Shown piece after piece: positions 29,684 through 63,887 of a stretch of DNA of 64,000 nt. Both the position numbers and the translations under genes were made by a program. This DNA comes from Isurus oxyrinchus. Lineage: Eukaryota. The notes below the pieces were generated by a model. The model saw nothing but the letters and a program-made list of their open reading frames with translations, was not told where the DNA came from and searched no databases. The DNA lies in contig JANJGN010000015.1 of the NCBI GenBank assembly GCA_026770705.1, forward strand, positions 2,418,001 through 2,482,000, read 5' to 3'. Each line of letters begins with the position of its first letter. The first letter of the stretch is position 1.

Positions 29684-31099
29684 TGTATATTAAACATATT
29701 GCAATAAAAATTCATCTCAGGCATTGAACAAAATGTTTGATATCACATCAGCCACCTGTTATGTGCAGCACTTGACATTCAGTTTCACTGCATTCAATGT
29801 CTGAGAGTGAGTGTGAGCCTTGGAGAAAGATCCCAAAGCTATATTAGGAAAAGGCAGTCCATCTCGGAGATACTGATTACCTTCCTGAAGAGGTCCAACT
29901 AGGTGAGATGAGGCCACCTTTCTTCAGCACCTTGCTCAGCCTCCTTCCCAGCAGTAGTCCAAGGTAGATGTTATTGATGCATTCCTGTTTTTATGGAAAA
30001 TTCTGAAGGTTTTCATCAACCTGCTGGTATTTGGACTACACTACTGTATAGGAGCTAACAGCATTGCAACCAAATTACCTATCACATGACTTACGAACGA
30101 GTGGTAGGAAATGTTGCATTTGTGCAATAGGAACGTTAATCCGACATATAACAGATTTTATACTGTCACTGAGAGGATAAAATAAAATTGTACTAATTTA
30201 CGAGCTAACTTCACTGTCAAAAAAGGAAAAATTACCAACATATGTTGAAGTAAAATGTGATAACTGCAAATGTTTTATTAGATTTTTGTATAACAATGCC
30301 GTAAAATACATTACATCCAAAATTCTGTCACTTATTTAATTTAAAAATCATATGGGGGTGAGAAATATGATATGGGAGCTGAATCCTCCAAGGCCCTTGT
30401 TGTAATATGGGTTCTTCAGACATCTCAATGATGGGAACTTGAGACTTGTATATTTAAACATGAACCATGCTCATTAATCGTTAATTATTTACGGATTCCA
30501 TGTTACTGTCTTGCGTGGCGGTGTTACCAGAGTGTTCTTTCCAGACTGTTCTCTCAGTCTATTACCATGTGACTCTATGCATCATACCATGGGCAGTGCT
30601 ATTCTCCAGTTCCACATTAACCTTTGCTCTGCTGAGCACCTTTGGATTACAGTGGCATGCAGGCACACACAACATCCCCCTTTCTTCGCCAAAGAAAACA
30701 TTCCTCTCTTCCAAAGGAGTATTACGATACAATCTTTACTTGCTATCCCTGCTCCCCCACCTCAAGTCTCTGACTTTACAAATTCAGATGGTCTTGAGGC
30801 TTGACAGTTGTTCCACATCTCAGTCTGTCACATTTGGAGGAATGGTAACAGTCCTCTGTGTTTCTGGTACGAGGCTATATCCATTTGATTTGCCTCTTGC
30901 GCTCTTTAGAGTTGTGTTTCTCTTCATTAACGACACATCTGCTTTTTTTGCACACTGTGGGTTTGTCCCATTCCTTTCAAAGGGAATGTGTACTCCATTC
31001 ATTCCGAGAGTGGACTTGCATTTTCTTTTCCCGTCGTATCCGCCATATTCTTGCAGCATATATAGGTTTTGCAAATGGAACCTTCATCTTCACTTGTTT

Positions 31100-33715
31100 C
31101 ACAAGTTCAGCCAAGCATTTGTTTGCTGTTTTATTTGCAAATCGTTTTGTAAGCTTATGAACCTTTTCATTCAGCTCAATGGTTCTCAGCATGTCTGAGA
31201 CCTCCAGTGCTATTTCTTCTTTTAGTTTCTTGCACTTTAGTGTTGGACTTACATTTTCCAATCTAATTTCTGTCTTTTCTTTCTCTGTCTGCAACTCCGT
31301 CTGGCCAGGTCTGTCTCCAGTGAAGTCTTAACTTGTTTCAGTTCTGTAATTGTGCAATTCATAGTTCACAGTTTGGAAAGTTCGATGGCTTTTCCTTTCA
31401 ATGCCTCCTCTTTATCATTCACTGCTTCTTCAGCTCTTCAGTCTGTTTCTTGTAACTTTCAGCTTCCCCCTGGAATACTGAACATTGTTGAGTCTTCTCT
31501 GCTGGCTGGTTCTTCAGTTTGTTCAGAGTGATGTTAAACTTGTTTTCTTTCTCTTTATAATTTTCCAGAGGAATAAACTTGGTCCTAAGGATTCCTTGTA
31601 GCTTGTGAAGGTCTGTGAACAGGTTTTCCTTTTCTTTGCAAAGCCCGCTTCTTCATCTTGAGTTTTCCCGTAATCCAGCCTAGTCCCCTCGAGTTCCTTC
31701 TACTGCGCTTCCATTCTGCTGGATAAGATAATCTGCATTTCTTCATGTTGCTGAATGGTTAGGTTTTCCTTTTGCATTTGATCTGAAAGGACAAATCAGC
31801 GGTTCTTCCAACTGCCTTTTTTCTTGTTGAGCTGTTGCCAGCTCACTCTGGGCTACAGTGCATCGTTTTGTTGCTACCAATAATTCCAAAGCAGCTTTTT
31901 CCAAAGTAACATTCAACATCCTTTTCAGCTCCTTATGTTTTTCCATGGCTACACATTGATTCTTCAAGGAGTCCTCCAGGATTGCAACTTCTTTGCTTGC
32001 CTTTTCTGCCTGCTGTTTTGCCTGGCTGTACATCTGGTAAACCAGGGAACTACAGGCCAGCGAGTCTCACGTCAGTGGTAGGGAAACTACTGGAGAAAAT
32101 TCTGAAGGAGAGAATCTATCTCCACTTGGAGAGGCAAGGTTTGATCAGGGATAGTCAGCATGGCTTTGTCAGAGGGAAGTCACGCCTAACAAATTTGATT
32201 GAATTTTTTGAGGAGGTGACCAGATGTGTAGATGAGGGTAGTGCAGTTGATATAGTTTATATGAATTTCAACAAAGCTTTTGATAAGGTTCCACATGGGA
32301 GACTTATGAAGATGGCAAATGCACATGGGATACAGGGTAATTTGATAAGGTGGATTCAAAATTGGCTCCTTTGTAGGAGACAGAGGGTGATGACAGAAGG
32401 ATGTTTTAGTGACTGGAAGCCAATGTCCAGTGGTGTAACACAGGGATCTGTGCTGGGTCCCCTATTATTCATCATTTATATAAACAACATAGATGACTAT
32501 TTGGGGGGTAGGATTAGTAAGTTTGCAGATGACACAAAGATTGGCCGGGTGGTTAACAGTGAGGTTGAGTGTCTTGGGCTACAGGAAGATATAGACGGGA
32601 TGGTCAAATGGGCAGATAAGTGGCGGATGGAATTTAACCCTGAAAAGTGTGAGGTGATACATTTTGGAAGGAGTAATTTGACAAGGAAGTATTCAATGAA
32701 TGGCATGACACTAGGAAATTCTGAGGAACAAAGGGACCTTGGCGTGTGTGACCATAGATCTCTGAAGACGGAGGGGCATGTTAGTGGGGTGGTGAAAAAG
32801 GCATATGGGACACTTGCCTTTATCAATCAAAGCATAGATTACAAAAGTAGGGAAATCATGTTGGAGTTGTATAGAACCTTGGTGAGGCCACAGCTGGAGT
32901 ACTGTGTGCAGTTCTGGTCGCCACATTATAGGAAGGATGTGATTGCACTGGAGGGGGTGCAGAGGAGATTCACCAGGATGTTGCCTGGGATGAAACATTT
33001 AAGTTATGAAGAGAGGTTGGATAGACTTGGGTTGTTTTCATTGGAGCAGAGAAGACTGAGGGGCAACCTGATCGAGGTGTACAAGATTATGAGGGGCATG
33101 GACAGGGTGGATAGGGAGCAGCTGTTCCCCTTAGTTGAAAGGTCAATCATTAGGGGTCATAAGTTCAAGGTGAGGGGCAGGAGGTTTAGGGGGGATGTGA
33201 GGAAAAACCTTTTTACCCAGAGGGTGGTGAGGGTCTGGAATGCGCTGCCTGGGAGGGTGGTGGAGGGGGGTTGCCTCACATCCTTTAAAAAGTACCTGGA
33301 TGAGCACTTGGCACGTCATAACATTCAAGGCTATGGGCCAAGTGCTGGTAAATGAGATTAGGTAGGTAGGTCAGGTGTTTCTCACATGTCGGTGCAGACT
33401 CAATGGGCCGAAGGGCCTTTTCTGCACTGTGTGATTCTGTGATTCTGGTTGAGTTTTCCCAACTCCTGCTTTGATTTGCCAACTGTGGAATTGAGGGTCG
33501 TTTTCTCCTCCTGGCACTTTTCTGTCACCTCTGAAACTTGATTGTTCAGATCTTGAACAGCTTGGTTCATTGAAGACTTCAGTTTATCATGCATTTTCAG
33601 CTTGGATCTTGTGCTTCAAATCTTCCAGTTTCTTGTAGAACAGCATAATTTACTTTTGCATATGTTGTTTCTTTTGAGTTACTTCAGGTAGCTTCCCTTC
33701 ATTCATAACCGTCTG
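31100..33715 (-). pseudogene. UACA/RAI14/ANKRD24-like coiled-coil coding segment (frameshifted, split by CR1)
   Basis: Minus strand reads LEDSLKNQCVAMEKHKELKRMLNVTLEK; QKENLTIQQHEEMQ; LHKLQGILRTKFIPLENYKEKENKFNITLNKLKNQPAEKTQQCSV. These recall the UACA coiled-coil repeats (from memory). Confidence 0.6.
32039..33443 (+). mobile_element. Young 5'-truncated CR1 (HER1-type) LINE with uninterrupted ORF2 RT
   Basis: ORF to 33355: PGNYRPASLTSVVGKLLEK, QHGF, DKVPH, QGSVLGP, FADDTK, LVRPQLEYCVQFWSP. Tail (gattctgt)n, TSD TCTGGT. Confidence 0.95.
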
Positions 33716-33969
33716 CTCACTCTGACTGCTATCTGTCTCCCTCGCTCTGGGGTCTTTTGGCTCCCTCTCTCTGGGGTTGTCTGTCACCCTCGTTCTGGAG
33801 TCTTTTGTTGTCCCCCGCCTGGGATCTTTTGTTGCCCTCTATCTGGGGTCCATTGTTGCCCTTGGTGCTTTATTAGGAGTTGCCTTCACTCTCTGGCATC
33901 TCGTTGCCCTCGTTGCTTTATTGGGGTGTTCTAGACCTTCTTCTAGGGTCTGTGCTCTCCACAACTTAG

Positions 33970-34237
33970 AGTTTAAAATATCTGTCAAAGTCTTTTAATA
34001 TCTCACCAAATGTGGTCATGTATGGAGTACTTCACCAACAAATGAACCATAGGCAAGAATGTATCAACTTGAACCTCTTCTAATTCCTGTACTTCTTCTG
34101 TACACTAAAAATTGTCTTCTCCAAGAATCACACTCTTGGGTCTGATTTAGCATTTTCCATAGCAAGAATGCATCTGTTTTTTCTAATTTGCTGCCTATGG
34201 CCATTCTTTTTCTTGTAGTTACCTCTTTAAATGTCAT
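33970..34237 (-). pseudogene. Gypsy gag N-terminal remnant
   Basis: M...CDSWRRQFLVYRRSTG / EEVQVDTF / TFGEILKDFDRYFK across frameshifts. Confidence 0.6.
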
Positions 34238-35239
34238 TGCTCCTTTAAGGCAGTGTGTGCAGTAACTGTTTGTGATTATTCAGGCTGTTGTTGCTAGGAT
34301 ACAGTTGACCTCCCTCTGTCTTTTTTGGAATCTTGTTGCTGGAAAACTGCTTTGCAGGTATTGTATTTTGCAACAAATATATCAAACCAGATACAGCATG
34401 TTCCAGCTTTTTGGCCTGTGCTGGGCTTGAAGAACAGCAGCTCTTTTTTTACTGAAAAACTTTACATTTCCCAATTGAAAAAGGTTCCCTTTCTTTTAAA
34501 TTCTGCAGATTTTGTTTTTTTTTGACTCAGTGCCATTCATTTTAAACTCTTGCGAACAGCAGCAATTTTTTTCTTTATTGAAAAACTTTAATTTTCCCAA
34601 CTGAAAAGGATTCCCTGTCTCTTAAACTATGCAAGCTTTTTCTTTCTTTTTTACTGTATACTGTAGGTTTCTCTCTTGATGCTGCCAGCTGATGTTTTTT
34701 TTAAACTATAGTGCAGCATGGCTACCACTGCTGCAACCTACTAAACCCTGGGACTGCCACCTATTCTAAAATGTAAGTACAGTTATTTTTTTTTGTATTT
34801 TTGCTCACCATCATGTGAACTGTGTCACTTGGGTTCTTACAATTTTCTGTAATGGGCTTCCACTCACTCTGGTGGATCACCATGTCAGATTATGGTACTC
34901 TCTCTGATGTGATATCTTTTAGGAGCTCTCACAGTTGCCAACCATGTTGTAATATGGTGCACAATGGTGTCTCAAAGATGAGATCTTAAGACTCGTATAT
35001 TTAAACATGAACTGTTTATTATTAATCTTTAATTACTTATAAATCCCAGGTTACTGTCCTGCATGGTGGTATTACCTCCATTCAGGCTGGTTCCATGGTG
35101 TTCTTTCTAGATGTTCTCTCAGTGTATCACCATGTGACTGAATGCATCATACCACGGGTGGTGCTATTTTCCAGTCCCACATTAACCATTGCTCTGCAGA
35201 GCACCTTTCCATTACAGTGACATGCAGGCATATACAACA

Positions 35240-36900
35240 CCATACAACTGCTCTGACTTGGATAGCCCTCAAAATCTGGCATGAGAATCATGATGTCCAA
35301 TTAACCTGTGCCAACTCAAAGTAATACAGGCAGCATGCAAACTTCCCACTGCCTGTCAATTATAATCACTGTGACCTCCAGGCCTGTGCTGAACACACTG
35401 CATACCTCAGCATGAGGCCCAATTCATGCAACTATTTAAAGCTAGCTTGCTCTATTTTAAAGCAAGACTGCAGCCCTCAAAGGTGGGGTGCATCCTGGCT
35501 ATAGCAGATGCTGTAAATGGTGTAAGAGGTGTGAAAGGAGGAAGAACAACAAAAATGACACAACAGACCCAACAGCATGTCCTAAGGTTCTATGATGCTG
35601 CCCTGGAGGCCTTGTTGCAGGAGGAAAGAGGTCAGCCTGCCTCAAAGGATCAGAAGTTCCTGAAGGCAGTTACCAAGAAAGCAGTGACAGCAGGTAGTCA
35701 TTGTGGTCAATGCCAGCAGTTTACCTCTGGGGACCAGAATGCAGGGTTAAAGGAAGTTTAATGACCTCACACAAGTGGTCAAGGTCAATGAATGCATTTT
35801 CAAATGCCAAATCCCACCAACTGCACCACGAGTCTCTTTCACTGCTCCATTTACCATACTCCCTTCACCCGCTATGAGTCCCGCCACTTTTCAAGTGGGC
35901 AGGGCTAAAATTACTTAACATTGTCTAAATTTCTGGCAAGCTGTCGTGCACTCATAGCTTAATTTCACCCTCACACAGTTAGCACTGCTGCAAGTCTCAC
36001 ACCCGCATCTCACAGATTGTACACAATGCTGACCATTCAACTGTTGCAGGCACATCACCCAAACACATTGCACCACACTCACTGATACACTTCCCCCTCT
36101 CTTGATGGGTAGTTAACCTACAATTGGCAGCAGCGGCTATCCCACAGAAGGCAAGCATAGCTATATGTGCTCTCCCCCATCCATGTACAATGCCGGAAAT
36201 CATTGTCACTGAGACAGTGATTTGCGGCAGGGCTGAAACTATATAGGATGATGATATTTTCCTGCCCAATCCACCTTTGAAAATGCCACTTCTGCCTCAT
36301 CTCACAACTTATCATGATTTTCAATATGCAGTTGCTGTAACTAACTTCCCCTTGCCTTCTAAGATAAAAGCAAAATACTGTGGATGCTGGAAATCTGAAA
36401 TAAAAACAGAATGCTGGAAAAACTCAGCAGGTCTGGCAACATCTGTGGAGAGAGCAGCAGCACTGAAGAATTCAAATGGACTCGAAATTTTAACTCTGTT
36501 TCTCTCTCCACAAATGCTGCCAGACCCGCTGAGTTTTTCCAGCATTTCCTGTTATTATTCCCCTTGTCTTACTTCACCCCCATCTGCTCTTGTGCCTTTC
36601 CCTTTCTGATGCCCAGGAACTAATGCCTGGCTAGACAGTGGTATGGAAGATTGAAAGCCTAGGTGAATAAGAAACTGATGAAGAAGAAACACTATTACTC
36701 AATTTGACACTCGCAGCCATCGATTCAGATACTGGCACTGTGTGTACTTTAGAGTAGCCCAGTTTCTGTACTTCCATTGGCCAGGCAAATTGCCAGAAAT
36801 TTAGAGCTATTATGGGTGAGTTTAGCTGGCCCACTTAGTGGAAACTGGGTAGTTCAAATTGCCTGTGGAACTCACCCACCAACACCGCACACCAAGTTCA
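35240..36900 (+). mobile_element. Old Harbinger element with Myb/SANT-like gene remnant
   Basis: LRFYDAALEALLQE...KEFNDLTQVVK and later ETDEEETLLLNLTLAAIDSDTG. A TIR-like gagctgaatcctcc lies just left of the LTR element at ~30376. Confidence 0.55.
36360..36552. mobile_element. Palindromic Penelope pLTR fragment
   Basis: aatgctggaaaaactcagcaggtctggca...tgccagacccgctgagtttttccagcattt, with a ctgaaga...gactcgaaa remnant in the loop. Confidence 0.7.
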
Positions 36901-36919
36901 GATTTTAATCTAATACAAT

Positions 36920-37700
36920 GGCAAAGCTTGTGGATACTGGAAATCCAAAATGAAAACAGAAAATGCTGGAAATATGCAACAGGTCAGGCAGCATAGAGAG
37001 AGAGAAGCAAAATCAACATGTCAGGTCAATGATTTTTCACCGGAATATGGAAAAGTTAGAGATGTAACAGGTATTAGACAAGTACAGAGATAGGGAAAGG
37101 GAGAGGAGCATAGGAACACAAGGAAAGGTCTGTGCTAGGACGGAAGACAGGAGAGATAAATGACAAAAGGGATGGTAGTCTAAGGCAAACGGAGATGGTA
37201 ATAGGAAAAGAAAGAAACATAAGATGGATCCAGAGGAGATATGAATGGCAAGAGCAGAATCATTATTTACTGCTGCTGTCTGGAAAAAATGGGAGCAGTG
37301 GTACGATCTGAAATCGTTGAACTCAATATCAAGACCAGAAGACAGTAAAGTGCCTTATTGAAAGATGAGGTACTGTTCCTTGAGCTTTTGTTGATCTTCA
37401 CTGCAGCAGTGTAGGACAATGAGGCAGAGAGGTCAGAATGGGAGTTGGGTGGAGAATTAAAATGAAAGGTGGAAGGAAACCCAAGGTCTTGCCTGTGTAC
37501 TGTATTCCAAAAAGCAGTCACCGAATCTGCATTTAGTGTCCCCAGAGTGGAGGAGATAGCATCATGAGTATCGAATACAATATACTAAATAGCAAGAAGC
37601 ACATGCAAATCGGAGTTTCAGCTGGGAAGATGTTTTGCAGCCTTGGTCAGTGGGAATGGAGGAAGTAAAAGGACAGGTGTTGTATCTCCTGCACTTGCAT
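36920..37700 (-). mobile_element. Old Penelope-like element 3' region
   Basis: pLTR-like start and a decayed GIY-YIG region homologous to 16000-16280. Confidence 0.7.
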
Positions 37701-46991: not shown

Positions 46992-47335
46992 AACAAAAAC
47001 AGAATTACCTGGAAAAACTCAGCAGGTCTGGCAGCATCGGCGGAGAAGAAAAGAGTTGACGTTTCGAGTCCTCATGACCCTTCTGTCTGGCAGCATCGGC
47101 GGAGAAGAAAAGAGTTGACGTTTCGAGTCCTCATGACCCTTCTGTCTGGCAGCATCGGCGGAGAAGAAAAGAGTTGACTTTTCGAGTCCTCATGACCCTT
47201 CTGTCGAAGGGTCATGAGGACTCGAAACGTCAACTCTTTTCTTCTCCGCCGATGCTGCCAGACCTGCTGAGTTTTTCCAGGTAATTCTGTTTTTGTTTTG
47301 GATTTCCAGCATCCGCAGTTTTCTTTGTTTTTATC
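46992..47335. mobile_element. Very young Penelope pLTR fold-back insertion with a 3x59-bp tandem
   Basis: 15-bp TSD TGTTCATTATTCCAT (46977-46991 and 47336-47350), essentially perfect inverted arms, and three tandem copies at ~47027-47204. Confidence 0.9.
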
Positions 47336-62760: not shown

Positions 62761-63887
62761 TCAATTTACTTCCCATGCATTAACTTTATTTTACTCTGGT
62801 TTACTTATGCAACTTTATTTTACATAGCTTCGACTTTATTTCCCTATTGCTTGTGTTTCTTACTTAAGGAATGTGTTTTTCTAATTCTCAACTACTTGAT
62901 GACACTCCCTAACAGTAATTTCTTATCAACCAATGAACTTATGTTTCTCCCGTGATGTTAGGTGCTTGGTGCCGCTGACTGCCTGGCTCAGGATCCTCCT
63001 CTCACACTCTCCTCTAGGTGCTGCTGACTGCCTGTCCCAGGGTCCTCCTCTCACACTCTCCTCACAGATGAAACTGGTACAGACTAGAATGAACAAAGTT
63101 TTTTTGTTCATGCATCATAACTTCCATAATGATCTATGTATGTTGCATAACTTGTAAATGATAGTGCATGCAAAAATCTTTTTCTTTTTATGAAAAGGGA
63201 ATTTTTTGGATAAATACCTGTGTACTCTGTGGCTTGCCATACTCATGACCTCAGATGTCATCACATGTTCATAAAGGTTTTGGGCAGCAGCTATTTTATA
63301 CACCACATAGAACACTATGTGCATTTTCACTTTTATTCCCCACAGATTTCTTTGTGATCTATTTTCATTTTGTTCATTGGTATAATTATATTTTTTAACA
63401 TTTGGTGGTTTCTGTTGTCCTTTTCTCCACTTCAATGTTTTTATTTCCTAATCCTTTTCAAGCTAATAAAATCACATTCGCATTCAAAACATTACAGATA
63501 TAATTTGTTGGTTCTTGAATAGCTATTTAATGAAATTATTTCAAACAATTCCTGACCAAATATTGGCTTGCAACTATAATATACATAAATAAACACAAGC
63601 AGCGTTCTACAGAGTGGCCTTGCACCTGTCAGTCAAAGGAATTGTTTGAAGTGGGTGCATTGCTTGGGGCAGAAGCAAACAACACTAACATTGAAACTTT
63701 ACTTTGATATTTAGAGTACACCTGGTGACAATACTTCTGAGTAAATTTATGTCACACTTTCTTACCTCCCTTTAATGTCTCTACGCACTACCAATCCCTG
63801 CCCCATTATCTGTGGTCTTGAGATGATAATACAATGTGCATTAGGAAAATGAATGCTTTCAGTACCGCTTGTCTATGTTTCAATGTT

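What the first reader, a model, noticed from the sequence alone, without database searches (positions are those of the whole stretch)
30398..35239. LTR retroelement whose pol is replaced by a UACA-like coiled-coil gene segment behind a Gag N-terminus
Seen: two ~280-295 bp TGTTG..CAACA LTRs, a PBS-like TGG, a PPT and a near-matching 4-bp TSD. On the minus strand the order is a Gypsy Gag N-terminus (WRRQFLVYRRSTG/EEVQVDT/FDRYF), an 8-codon tandem linker, ~1.2 kb of coiled-coil coding sequence, and a possible integrase-tail remnant (QRTVTIPP). No RT, RNase H or protease is present. Inferred: the coiled coil resembles vertebrate UACA/RAI14/ANKRD24 (my recall of those proteins). If so, this is retrovirus-like transduction of a host gene into a non-autonomous LTR family, possibly once expressed as a Gag fusion.
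Basis: partly seen in the sequence, partly recalled or inferred. Interest (0 to 1): 0.85.

Follow-up and report, generated by a model that had tools for sequence, protein, structure and literature searches.

The report
Shark jumping element carrying UACA exon
This is one decayed copy of an old shark retrotransposon family, roughly a thousand copies strong, that carries a piece of the host UACA gene in the same reading frame as its own capsid gene and likely had to keep that hybrid frame open in order to spread.

Summary
Confirmed and extended. The window holds a decayed Ty3/Gypsy-type LTR element (true span 30398-35249; 5-bp, not 4-bp, target duplication; tRNA-Leu primer site) without pol, split by a younger LINE. 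About 1.0 kb of its interior derives from the large coiled-coil exon of host UACA, found on contig C25 (77-80% DNA identity), as three blocks joined by two in-frame deletions. At least about 1,000 colinear copies exist; a second shark species holds the family. Column counts over 68 copies show one ~665-codon frame (Gag N-terminus, 8-codon linker, UACA, unknown basic tail) without fixed stops, while single copies average 4 stops and 4.5 frameshifts in the UACA part. Yet residues changed at about the neutral rate, and one subfamily lost Gag in frame, so the open frame, more than the protein, likely mattered. UACA replaces most of gag as well as pol; intron loss is untestable (one exon); QRTVTIPP is not supported as integrase. 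The kind is known (Bs1, LTR retrocopies, crocodilian ERVs), and this scan noted similar shark captures (CLIP1, RBPMS2) on other DNA; no UACA case turned up in two paper searches.

The parts
35250..35254 (-). 5' copy of the 5-bp target-site duplication (AGAGC)
34945..35249 (-).
34927..34944 (-). Primer-binding site complementary to tRNA-Leu 3' end (11 of 14 here; 11 or more of 14 in 36 of 53 copies)
34205..34926 (-). 5' leader, with an internal ~80-nt duplication (34444-34523 / 34570-34649)
33975..34204 (-). Gypsy-type Gag N-terminus, about 80 codons from the ATG to FDRYF, broken by frameshifts in this copy; corresponds to the first helical lobe of the capsid protein
33698..33974 (-). Linker of 24-nt (8-codon) repeats, variable in number between copies
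33444..33697 (-). UACA-derived block 1 (host L061 4551-4776) and start of block 2, joined across a 102-nt in-frame deletion
32039..33443 (+). Younger 5'-truncated LINE inserted into this copy only; 481-aa stop-free RT frame; 6-bp duplication at 32033-32038 and 33444-33449
31426..32038 (-). UACA-derived block 2 (host L061 to 5548), 77.5% identical over 614 nt
31336..31434 (-). UACA-derived block 3 (host L061 5990-6101), joined across a 450-nt in-frame deletion at a 9-nt repeat
30877..31335 (-). In-frame continuation of unknown origin (about 155 codons, Lys/Arg-rich end) up to the family's stop
30776..30820 (-). Short remnant like the end of Gypsy pol (RCGTTVKPQDHLNL* here), shared with sister families
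   Evidence: motif class recalled
30675..30687 (-). Polypurine tract
30398..30674 (-). 3' LTR, 277 bp
30393..30397 (-). 3' copy of the target-site duplication (AGGGC)

Best explanation
This is a dead copy of a pol-less Gypsy LTR family that carries three in-frame blocks of the host UACA exon behind a shortened gag, likely picked up by template switching onto UACA mRNA inside a helper element's particle and then copied to about a thousand sites with borrowed enzymes. Shown: LTRs, 5-bp target duplications, primer site, shared junctions, the donor exon, one long frame free of fixed stops, neutral decay after insertion. Inferred: capture near the lamniform/carcharhiniform split; mobilisation in trans by an unidentified autonomous Gypsy; selection in cis on the master RNA to stay translatable nearly to the 3' LTR. 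The most likely reason is that a long open frame kept the unspliced RNA stable and ribosome-bound (shielded from decay of messages with early stops), the UACA coil serving as stop-free filler whose residues were free to drift.
For: Donor: 911-codon stop-free exon with AG/GT borders, 99% to Carcharodon UACA, neighbouring exons present; 77 of 77 loci tested hit the same blocks (loci overlap, not all distinct copies). Family: 29 of 29 other loci colinear; 351 exact 17-mer hits, control 0, retention 35 of 97. Frame: Gag motifs and all three host blocks share one phase; from the ATG column to the stop only 4 mixed stop columns, 3 clearly of CpG-decay type, against dozens of fixed stops in each other phase. 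Single natural copies read stop-free across linker-UACA-deletion 1 (L073, 170 aa) and deletion 2-tail (L064, 266 aa). In-frame distances: 52 of 66, 55 of 66, 44 of 60. Stem carries 0.177 aa changes/site without stop or shift; single copies at 0.16 average 4.2 stops and 4.5 shifts, 0 of 68 clean; simulated P(no stop) 0.005-0.048. Frame rather than protein: stem omega about 0.75-2, 1.2 at the central assumption; 13 of 20 short copies read from the start codon straight into the linker frame, having lost the Gag lobe in frame.
Against: No direct test of RNA decay or translation. Omega on the stem is indirect (no outgroup DNA; depends on assumed host synonymous change; 0.75 if that is 0.6 of the copies' level). 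Subfamily-level variants are too few (16 synonymous, 30 nonsynonymous, omega 0.72) and the frequency-class test is confounded by transition bias, since non-coding controls behave alike. Whole-span mod-3 counts over Gag and linker are uninformative in the pooled alignment (15/12/15 and 16/14/12); frame there rests on subgroup alignments, where the largest group (36 copies) needs one modal offset and has one ambiguous interval. The two UACA deletions fall at internal repeats, so being in frame is partly automatic. Sister pol-less families also spread; whether they keep long frames was not tested. No helper with matching LTRs found in 20 + 30 loci. Capture from mRNA versus DNA cannot be told.
Confidence: 0.6

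Rival explanations
1. The fusion was a working protein: a long coiled coil with a Lys/Arg-rich tail (with or without the Gag lobe) that would oligomerise and bind its own RNA, or co-assemble with helper Gag, and so win packaging in cis, somewhat like LINE-1 ORF1p in layout (resemblance recalled).
For: Frame open for ~665 codons; basic tail, 16 K/R against 5 D/E in 55 residues of one copy; coiled coils tolerate fast residue change; host-versus-family dN/dS 0.36 overall; differences richest at third codon positions, 61 against 49 and 36.
Against: That 0.36 includes the host branch; after subtraction stem omega is near 1; Gag lobe dispensable in a subfamily; capsid C-lobe and zinc knuckle absent; tail has no known relative.
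Confidence: 0.27
2. The open frame is an inherited accident: two open frames were joined in phase by chance and one burst of copying followed before stops arose.
For: Star-like tree, internal branches 0.53 against terminal 9.66; deletions at repeats are in frame by themselves.
Against: About 45-65 amino-acid changes sit on the stem without a stop or shift; Gag-linker, linker-UACA, UACA-tail and the Gag deletion are four further in-frame joints.
Confidence: 0.08
3. The donor was a diverged, since lost UACA duplicate or retrocopy, so much of the stem change predates capture.
For: Long stem; only 2 of 21 lamniform-derived residues shared.
Against: No second long-frame UACA match among 150 scored hits; placement within the shark UACA tree fits the species tree.
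Confidence: 0.05

Closest known systems
LTR-mediated retrocopies of animals (Tan et al. 2016, PMC5131818; passages read)
   Same: Partial host coding sequence between LTR-element ends, short repeats at joints, secondary copying with shared switch points.
   Different: Those are mostly young, low-copy loci; here about a thousand copies and an in-frame fusion to gag kept over a long stem.
Maize Bs1 (as described in PMC5131818 and PMC7264820, passages; the primary paper PMC2899935 was not held)
   Same: Non-autonomous LTR element with a hybrid frame built from host exons, re-copied as a unit.
   Different: Bs1 has 1-5 copies and three known donors; this is a vertebrate Gypsy family, extinct, far more numerous, one proven donor.
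Crocodilian ERV captures of KIT-ligand and nectin3 (PMC4299795, passages)
   Same: Ancient vertebrate LTR elements carrying host coding sequence in several copies, shared between species.
   Different: Those are retroviral, carry near-whole separate ORFs under purifying selection in 6-9 copies; here a Gypsy element, an internal exon piece fused to gag, residues drifting, copies all decayed.
Acutely transforming defective retroviruses with gag-host fusions (recalled, no call)
   Same: Shortened gag fused in frame to host sequence, replication genes lost, helper needed.
   Different: No env, no sign of infection; cargo is a structural coiled coil, not a signalling oncogene; no evidence of effect on the host.
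Pol-less sister Gypsy families in the same genome (L272, L274, L276, L284, L286, L288, L290)
   Same: About 3-3.3 kb, related Gag, same 3' tail motif, short LTR likeness.
   Different: They keep whole gag and the start of protease and have no UACA.

Membership tests
Ty3/Gypsy LTR retrotransposon (non-autonomous derivative) | Paired LTRs with TG..CA ends | tested here: met
   own pair closer (p 0.188) than other copies (0.224), no systematic 5'/3' difference
Ty3/Gypsy LTR retrotransposon (non-autonomous derivative) | 4-6 bp target-site duplication, tRNA primer site, polypurine tract | tested here: met
   5 bp; tRNA-Leu; PPT
Ty3/Gypsy LTR retrotransposon (non-autonomous derivative) | Gag of retrotransposon type | tested here: met
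   Profile finds three Gag-like proteins of 4 hits (E 4e-5 to 6e-4; the top hit is an unrelated repeat protein) and the N-terminus of 30 of 30 shark gag loci; model of P0026 gives capsid folds only at weak E
Ty3/Gypsy LTR retrotransposon (non-autonomous derivative) | RT phylogeny and PR-RT-RH-IN order | not testable with these tools
   pol absent; placement rests on Gag relatives and recalled motifs
LTR-mediated retrocopy (Tan et al.) | Partial host coding sequence flanked by LTR-element sequence | tested here: met
LTR-mediated retrocopy (Tan et al.) | Loss of introns | not testable with these tools
   all blocks lie in one exon
LTR-mediated retrocopy (Tan et al.) | Microsimilarity at switch points | tested here: inconclusive
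   6- and 9-nt identities at the two internal deletions; outer joints lack a known parent sequence
LTR-mediated retrocopy (Tan et al.) | Secondary retroposition with shared joints | tested here: met
Captured ORF under purifying selection (crocodilian ERV / Bs1 type) | dN/dS below 1 on the captured frame | tested here: inconclusive
   frame kept, but stem omega about 0.75-2 and clade omega 0.72 on 46 variants

The most novel reading that the evidence does not exclude
Shark Gypsy elements take up long host coiled-coil exons as stop-free filler that lets a pol-less RNA stay translated and out-compete its helpers; in the boldest form the UACA coil plus basic tail replaced Gag as a new cis-acting RNA-binding scaffold, since a Gag-less subfamily kept the frame and went on spreading. 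With the CLIP1 case noted elsewhere in this scan this would be a recurring route, not a one-off.
Probability: 0.3. Interest if true: 0.8.

Novelty: new variant of a known kind. Interest (0 to 1): 0.6.

Why it matters
Gene capture by LTR elements is known, but mostly as single or few-copy events. Here a vertebrate capture became a family of about a thousand copies, and the fossil copies allow a rare separation of selection on an open frame from selection on a protein. That makes testable why non-autonomous retroelements keep long hybrid frames. It also leaves about 1 Mb of UACA-like sequence scattered in lamniform genomes, which can mislead gene annotation and offers shared-insertion markers for shark phylogeny.

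Tried and rejected
4-bp target duplication: rejected. 5' and 3' LTRs as separate lineages (non-standard copying): rejected, 0 of 383 columns differ, 24 label changes against 23.7 shuffled. Coiled coil as a normal Gypsy ORF: rejected, absent from 20 gag-clade loci. QRTVTIPP as integrase: other frame, no match. Source of the tail after UACA: nothing in two protein searches, Atlas best 0.84 below threshold, Pfam, three own-genome searches returning only family-like hits (30 of 30 loci are family copies), nor in 23 UACA proteins. Helper element: no LTR match among 30 integrase loci; only 38-67-nt LTR likenesses to pol-less sisters among 20 gag loci. Frequency-class selection test: confounded. Expression: no RNA holder listed; low-depth family pieces in two RNA-guess runs are no evidence. 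Dating by the epaulette-shark rate (7e-10 per generation, CI 1.4-14.1e-10; PMC10587355 passages) would give about 1.6e8 generations for 0.11 changes/site, too loose to use. Paper searches: UACA+retrotransposon+shark 0 papers; UACA+transposable element 29 papers, 15 listed, none on this by title or abstract start; listings only. No supplements were read.
Full report
1. Observation. The two LTRs are real: 225 of 276 aligned bases agree. Of 97 loci fetched, 26 had both ends callable; 7 show a perfect and 12 a <=1-mismatch 5-bp duplication, against 1 and 3 for 4 bp (some misses are border errors of my script). The sequence behind the 5' LTR pairs with the 3' end of this genome's tRNA-Leu genes: 4 of 6 loci checked are tRNA-Leu, 36 of 53 copies match 11 or more of 14 bases, the window 11. 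A polypurine tract precedes the 3' LTR. A 5'-truncated LINE with an RT frame of 481 aa and a 6-bp duplication fills 32039-33443 and is absent at that site from the 29 other loci.

2. The family. All 29 other loci show the same order of parts, some with pieces missing. One 17-mer of the UACA part occurs 351 times, control 0; 35 of my 97 loci keep it, so about 970 copies, a floor because those loci were the best hits and the word the best kept. Twenty-nine loci have both LTRs and interiors of 2.8-3.2 kb with no tblastx hit to three pol-bearing loci. In 35 LTR pairs the own partner is closer (p 0.188, K2P 0.22) than other copies (0.224) and 5' and 3' LTRs do not differ by column, as ordinary retrotransposition predicts. 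The copy tree is star-like. A DNA run of a second species laid 4813 records on the 3' part; one contig covers the flank at about 97% and 30 bases of the LTR, one short of the tool's bridging rule, and that species holds about 21% of this copy's 31-mers, so the insertion is probably shared.

3. The donor. Among 150 scored hits of a 99-aa piece, one lay in a 911-codon stop-free frame on C25. It has splice borders, is 99% identical to Carcharodon UACA, with all named hits of 23 called UACA or UACA-like, and has further UACA exons on both sides. All 77 loci tested match within three blocks of this exon: L061 4551-4776, 4873-5548, 5990-6101. The gaps are 102 and 450 nt, both multiples of three, at 6- and 9-nt identities. 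Because all lies in one exon, intron loss cannot be tested. In a protein tree 12 single copies (X at breaks) fall inside Lamniformes plus Carcharhiniformes (SH-aLRT 89, bootstrap 95), weakly beside the lamniform genes (47/84); they share 2 of 21 lamniform-only, 0 of 6 carcharhiniform-only and 2 of 2 joint derived residues. Capture thus falls near that split (Jurassic, by recall).

4. The retroelement parts. A profile of six natural Gag pieces finds three Gag-like proteins among 4 hits and residues about 5-71 of 30 of 30 shark gag loci; the Atlas names DUF7041 at 0.95 with 155 shared features. A model of one relative shows four N-terminal helices, then a capsid C-lobe, with weak Foldseek hits that are nearly all capsids; the element keeps only the first 80 or so residues. 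So UACA replaces most of gag, not only pol. Sister families with whole gag, a protease start and no RT share a 60-80-nt 3' stretch at 71-82% and lack UACA. That stretch encodes RCGTTVKPQDHLNL* in the window; 5 of 20 gag-clade loci have the like, and L281 has a similar motif behind its integrase end; that this is the usual end of Gypsy pol is my recall. QRTVTIPP is in another frame and unsupported. About 155 codons after UACA have no known source; in two RNA-guess runs of two studies one contig fits only 31272-31345 and runs on unlike at both sides, a hint of a second donor that I could not identify.

5. The frame. In 68 of 97 copies (29 dropped for missing 3' LTR or large insertions) Gag motifs, the three host blocks and the tail share one phase; between the ATG column and the stop, about 665 codons, only four columns have a stop as commonest codon, at 26-55%, three with a clear CpG-decay pattern, whereas the other phases have dozens at 70-100%. 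Single copies bridge the joints without stops (L073, L064). Distances are in frame across deletion 1 in 52 of 66, deletion 2 in 55 of 66, the UACA end in 44 of 60; whole-span counts over Gag and linker are uninformative. Subgroup alignments put the ATG in the UACA frame in a 9-copy clade (23 of 23 local intervals) and a 21-copy clade (11 of 11); the other 36 copies agree after one modal offset in the repeat linker, with one ambiguous interval. After insertion, decay is neutral (omega 0.89-0.95): 4.2 stops and 4.5 shifts per copy in the UACA part, 0 of 68 clean. The stem carries as much change (0.177 against about 0.16 aa/site; 38 of 55 polarised differences) with none; simulation gives P(no stop) 0.005-0.048. 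The frame was therefore likely kept by selection.

6. Frame or protein? Host against family dN/dS is 0.36, but that includes the host branch. Taking host synonymous change as 0.6, 1.0 or 1.3 times that of a decaying copy gives stem omega 0.75, 1.18, 2.08 without CpG sites (1.2-2.3 with them). Clade-level variants are too few (omega 0.72; 46 variants, none a stop). Thirteen of 20 short copies have lost the Gag lobe after about seven codons and read on in the linker frame. I therefore favour selection on translatability of the RNA (0.6) over a working coil-plus-basic-tail protein (0.27), chance (0.08) or a lost paralogous donor (0.05). Template switching, the helper and the decay shield are inferences from known LTR and mRNA biology; none was tested.

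7. Known relatives and novelty. Tan et al. (PMC5131818, passages) describe LTR-flanked partial retrocopies in animals, FAM8A1 and maize Bs1 (1-5 copies, hybrid frame); PMC7264820 (passages) repeats Bs1; PMC4299795 (passages) gives crocodilian ERVs with KIT-ligand and nectin3 in 9 and 6 copies under purifying selection. Earlier AI notes of this scan report CLIP1 and RBPMS2 captures in shark LTR families (unchecked by me apart from the paper). No UACA case. The element works like these and meets their structural tests except intron loss (untestable). New are the scale, the in-frame gag fusion and the signs that the frame, not the residues, was kept. Verdict: real, new variant of a known kind, interest 0.6.

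Noticed in passing
L272, L274, L276, L284, L286, L288, L290: Pol-less sister Gypsy families of about 3-3.3 kb with whole gag, start of protease, about 1 kb of unexplained interior and the same 3' tail; they may carry other cargo.
   Followed up: partly
window 31272-31345 (runs X21, X24): An RNA-type contig in two studies fits only this stretch and continues unlike on both sides: possible second donor transcript, or a transcript with a short element fragment.
   Followed up: partly
L070, L072, L078, L122, L139, L143, L154, L171, L174, L179, L186, L187, L190: Subfamily that lost the Gag lobe in frame, keeping about seven codons before the linker.
   Followed up: yes
window 32039-33443: Young LINE with a 481-aa stop-free RT frame inside the old element; short tandem-repeat 3' tail of CR1 type (class recalled).
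   Followed up: partly
window 36379-37030: Cluster of short inverted and direct repeats (51-nt arms, 90% complementary), probably fragments of a common shark SINE or MITE.
   Followed up: no
window 47026-47205 and 62968-63063: Near-perfect tandem arrays, 59-nt unit x3.1 (99%) and 49-nt unit x2.
   Followed up: no
G000:C44:1599742-1600029 (L215): Integrase match in a 1165-codon stop-free frame, a young LTR element unrelated to this family by the searches made.
   Followed up: no
G000:C20:9747620-9748339 (L242/L285): Gag in a 441-codon stop-free frame, the best-preserved of 138 gag hits; could be young or domesticated.
   Followed up: no
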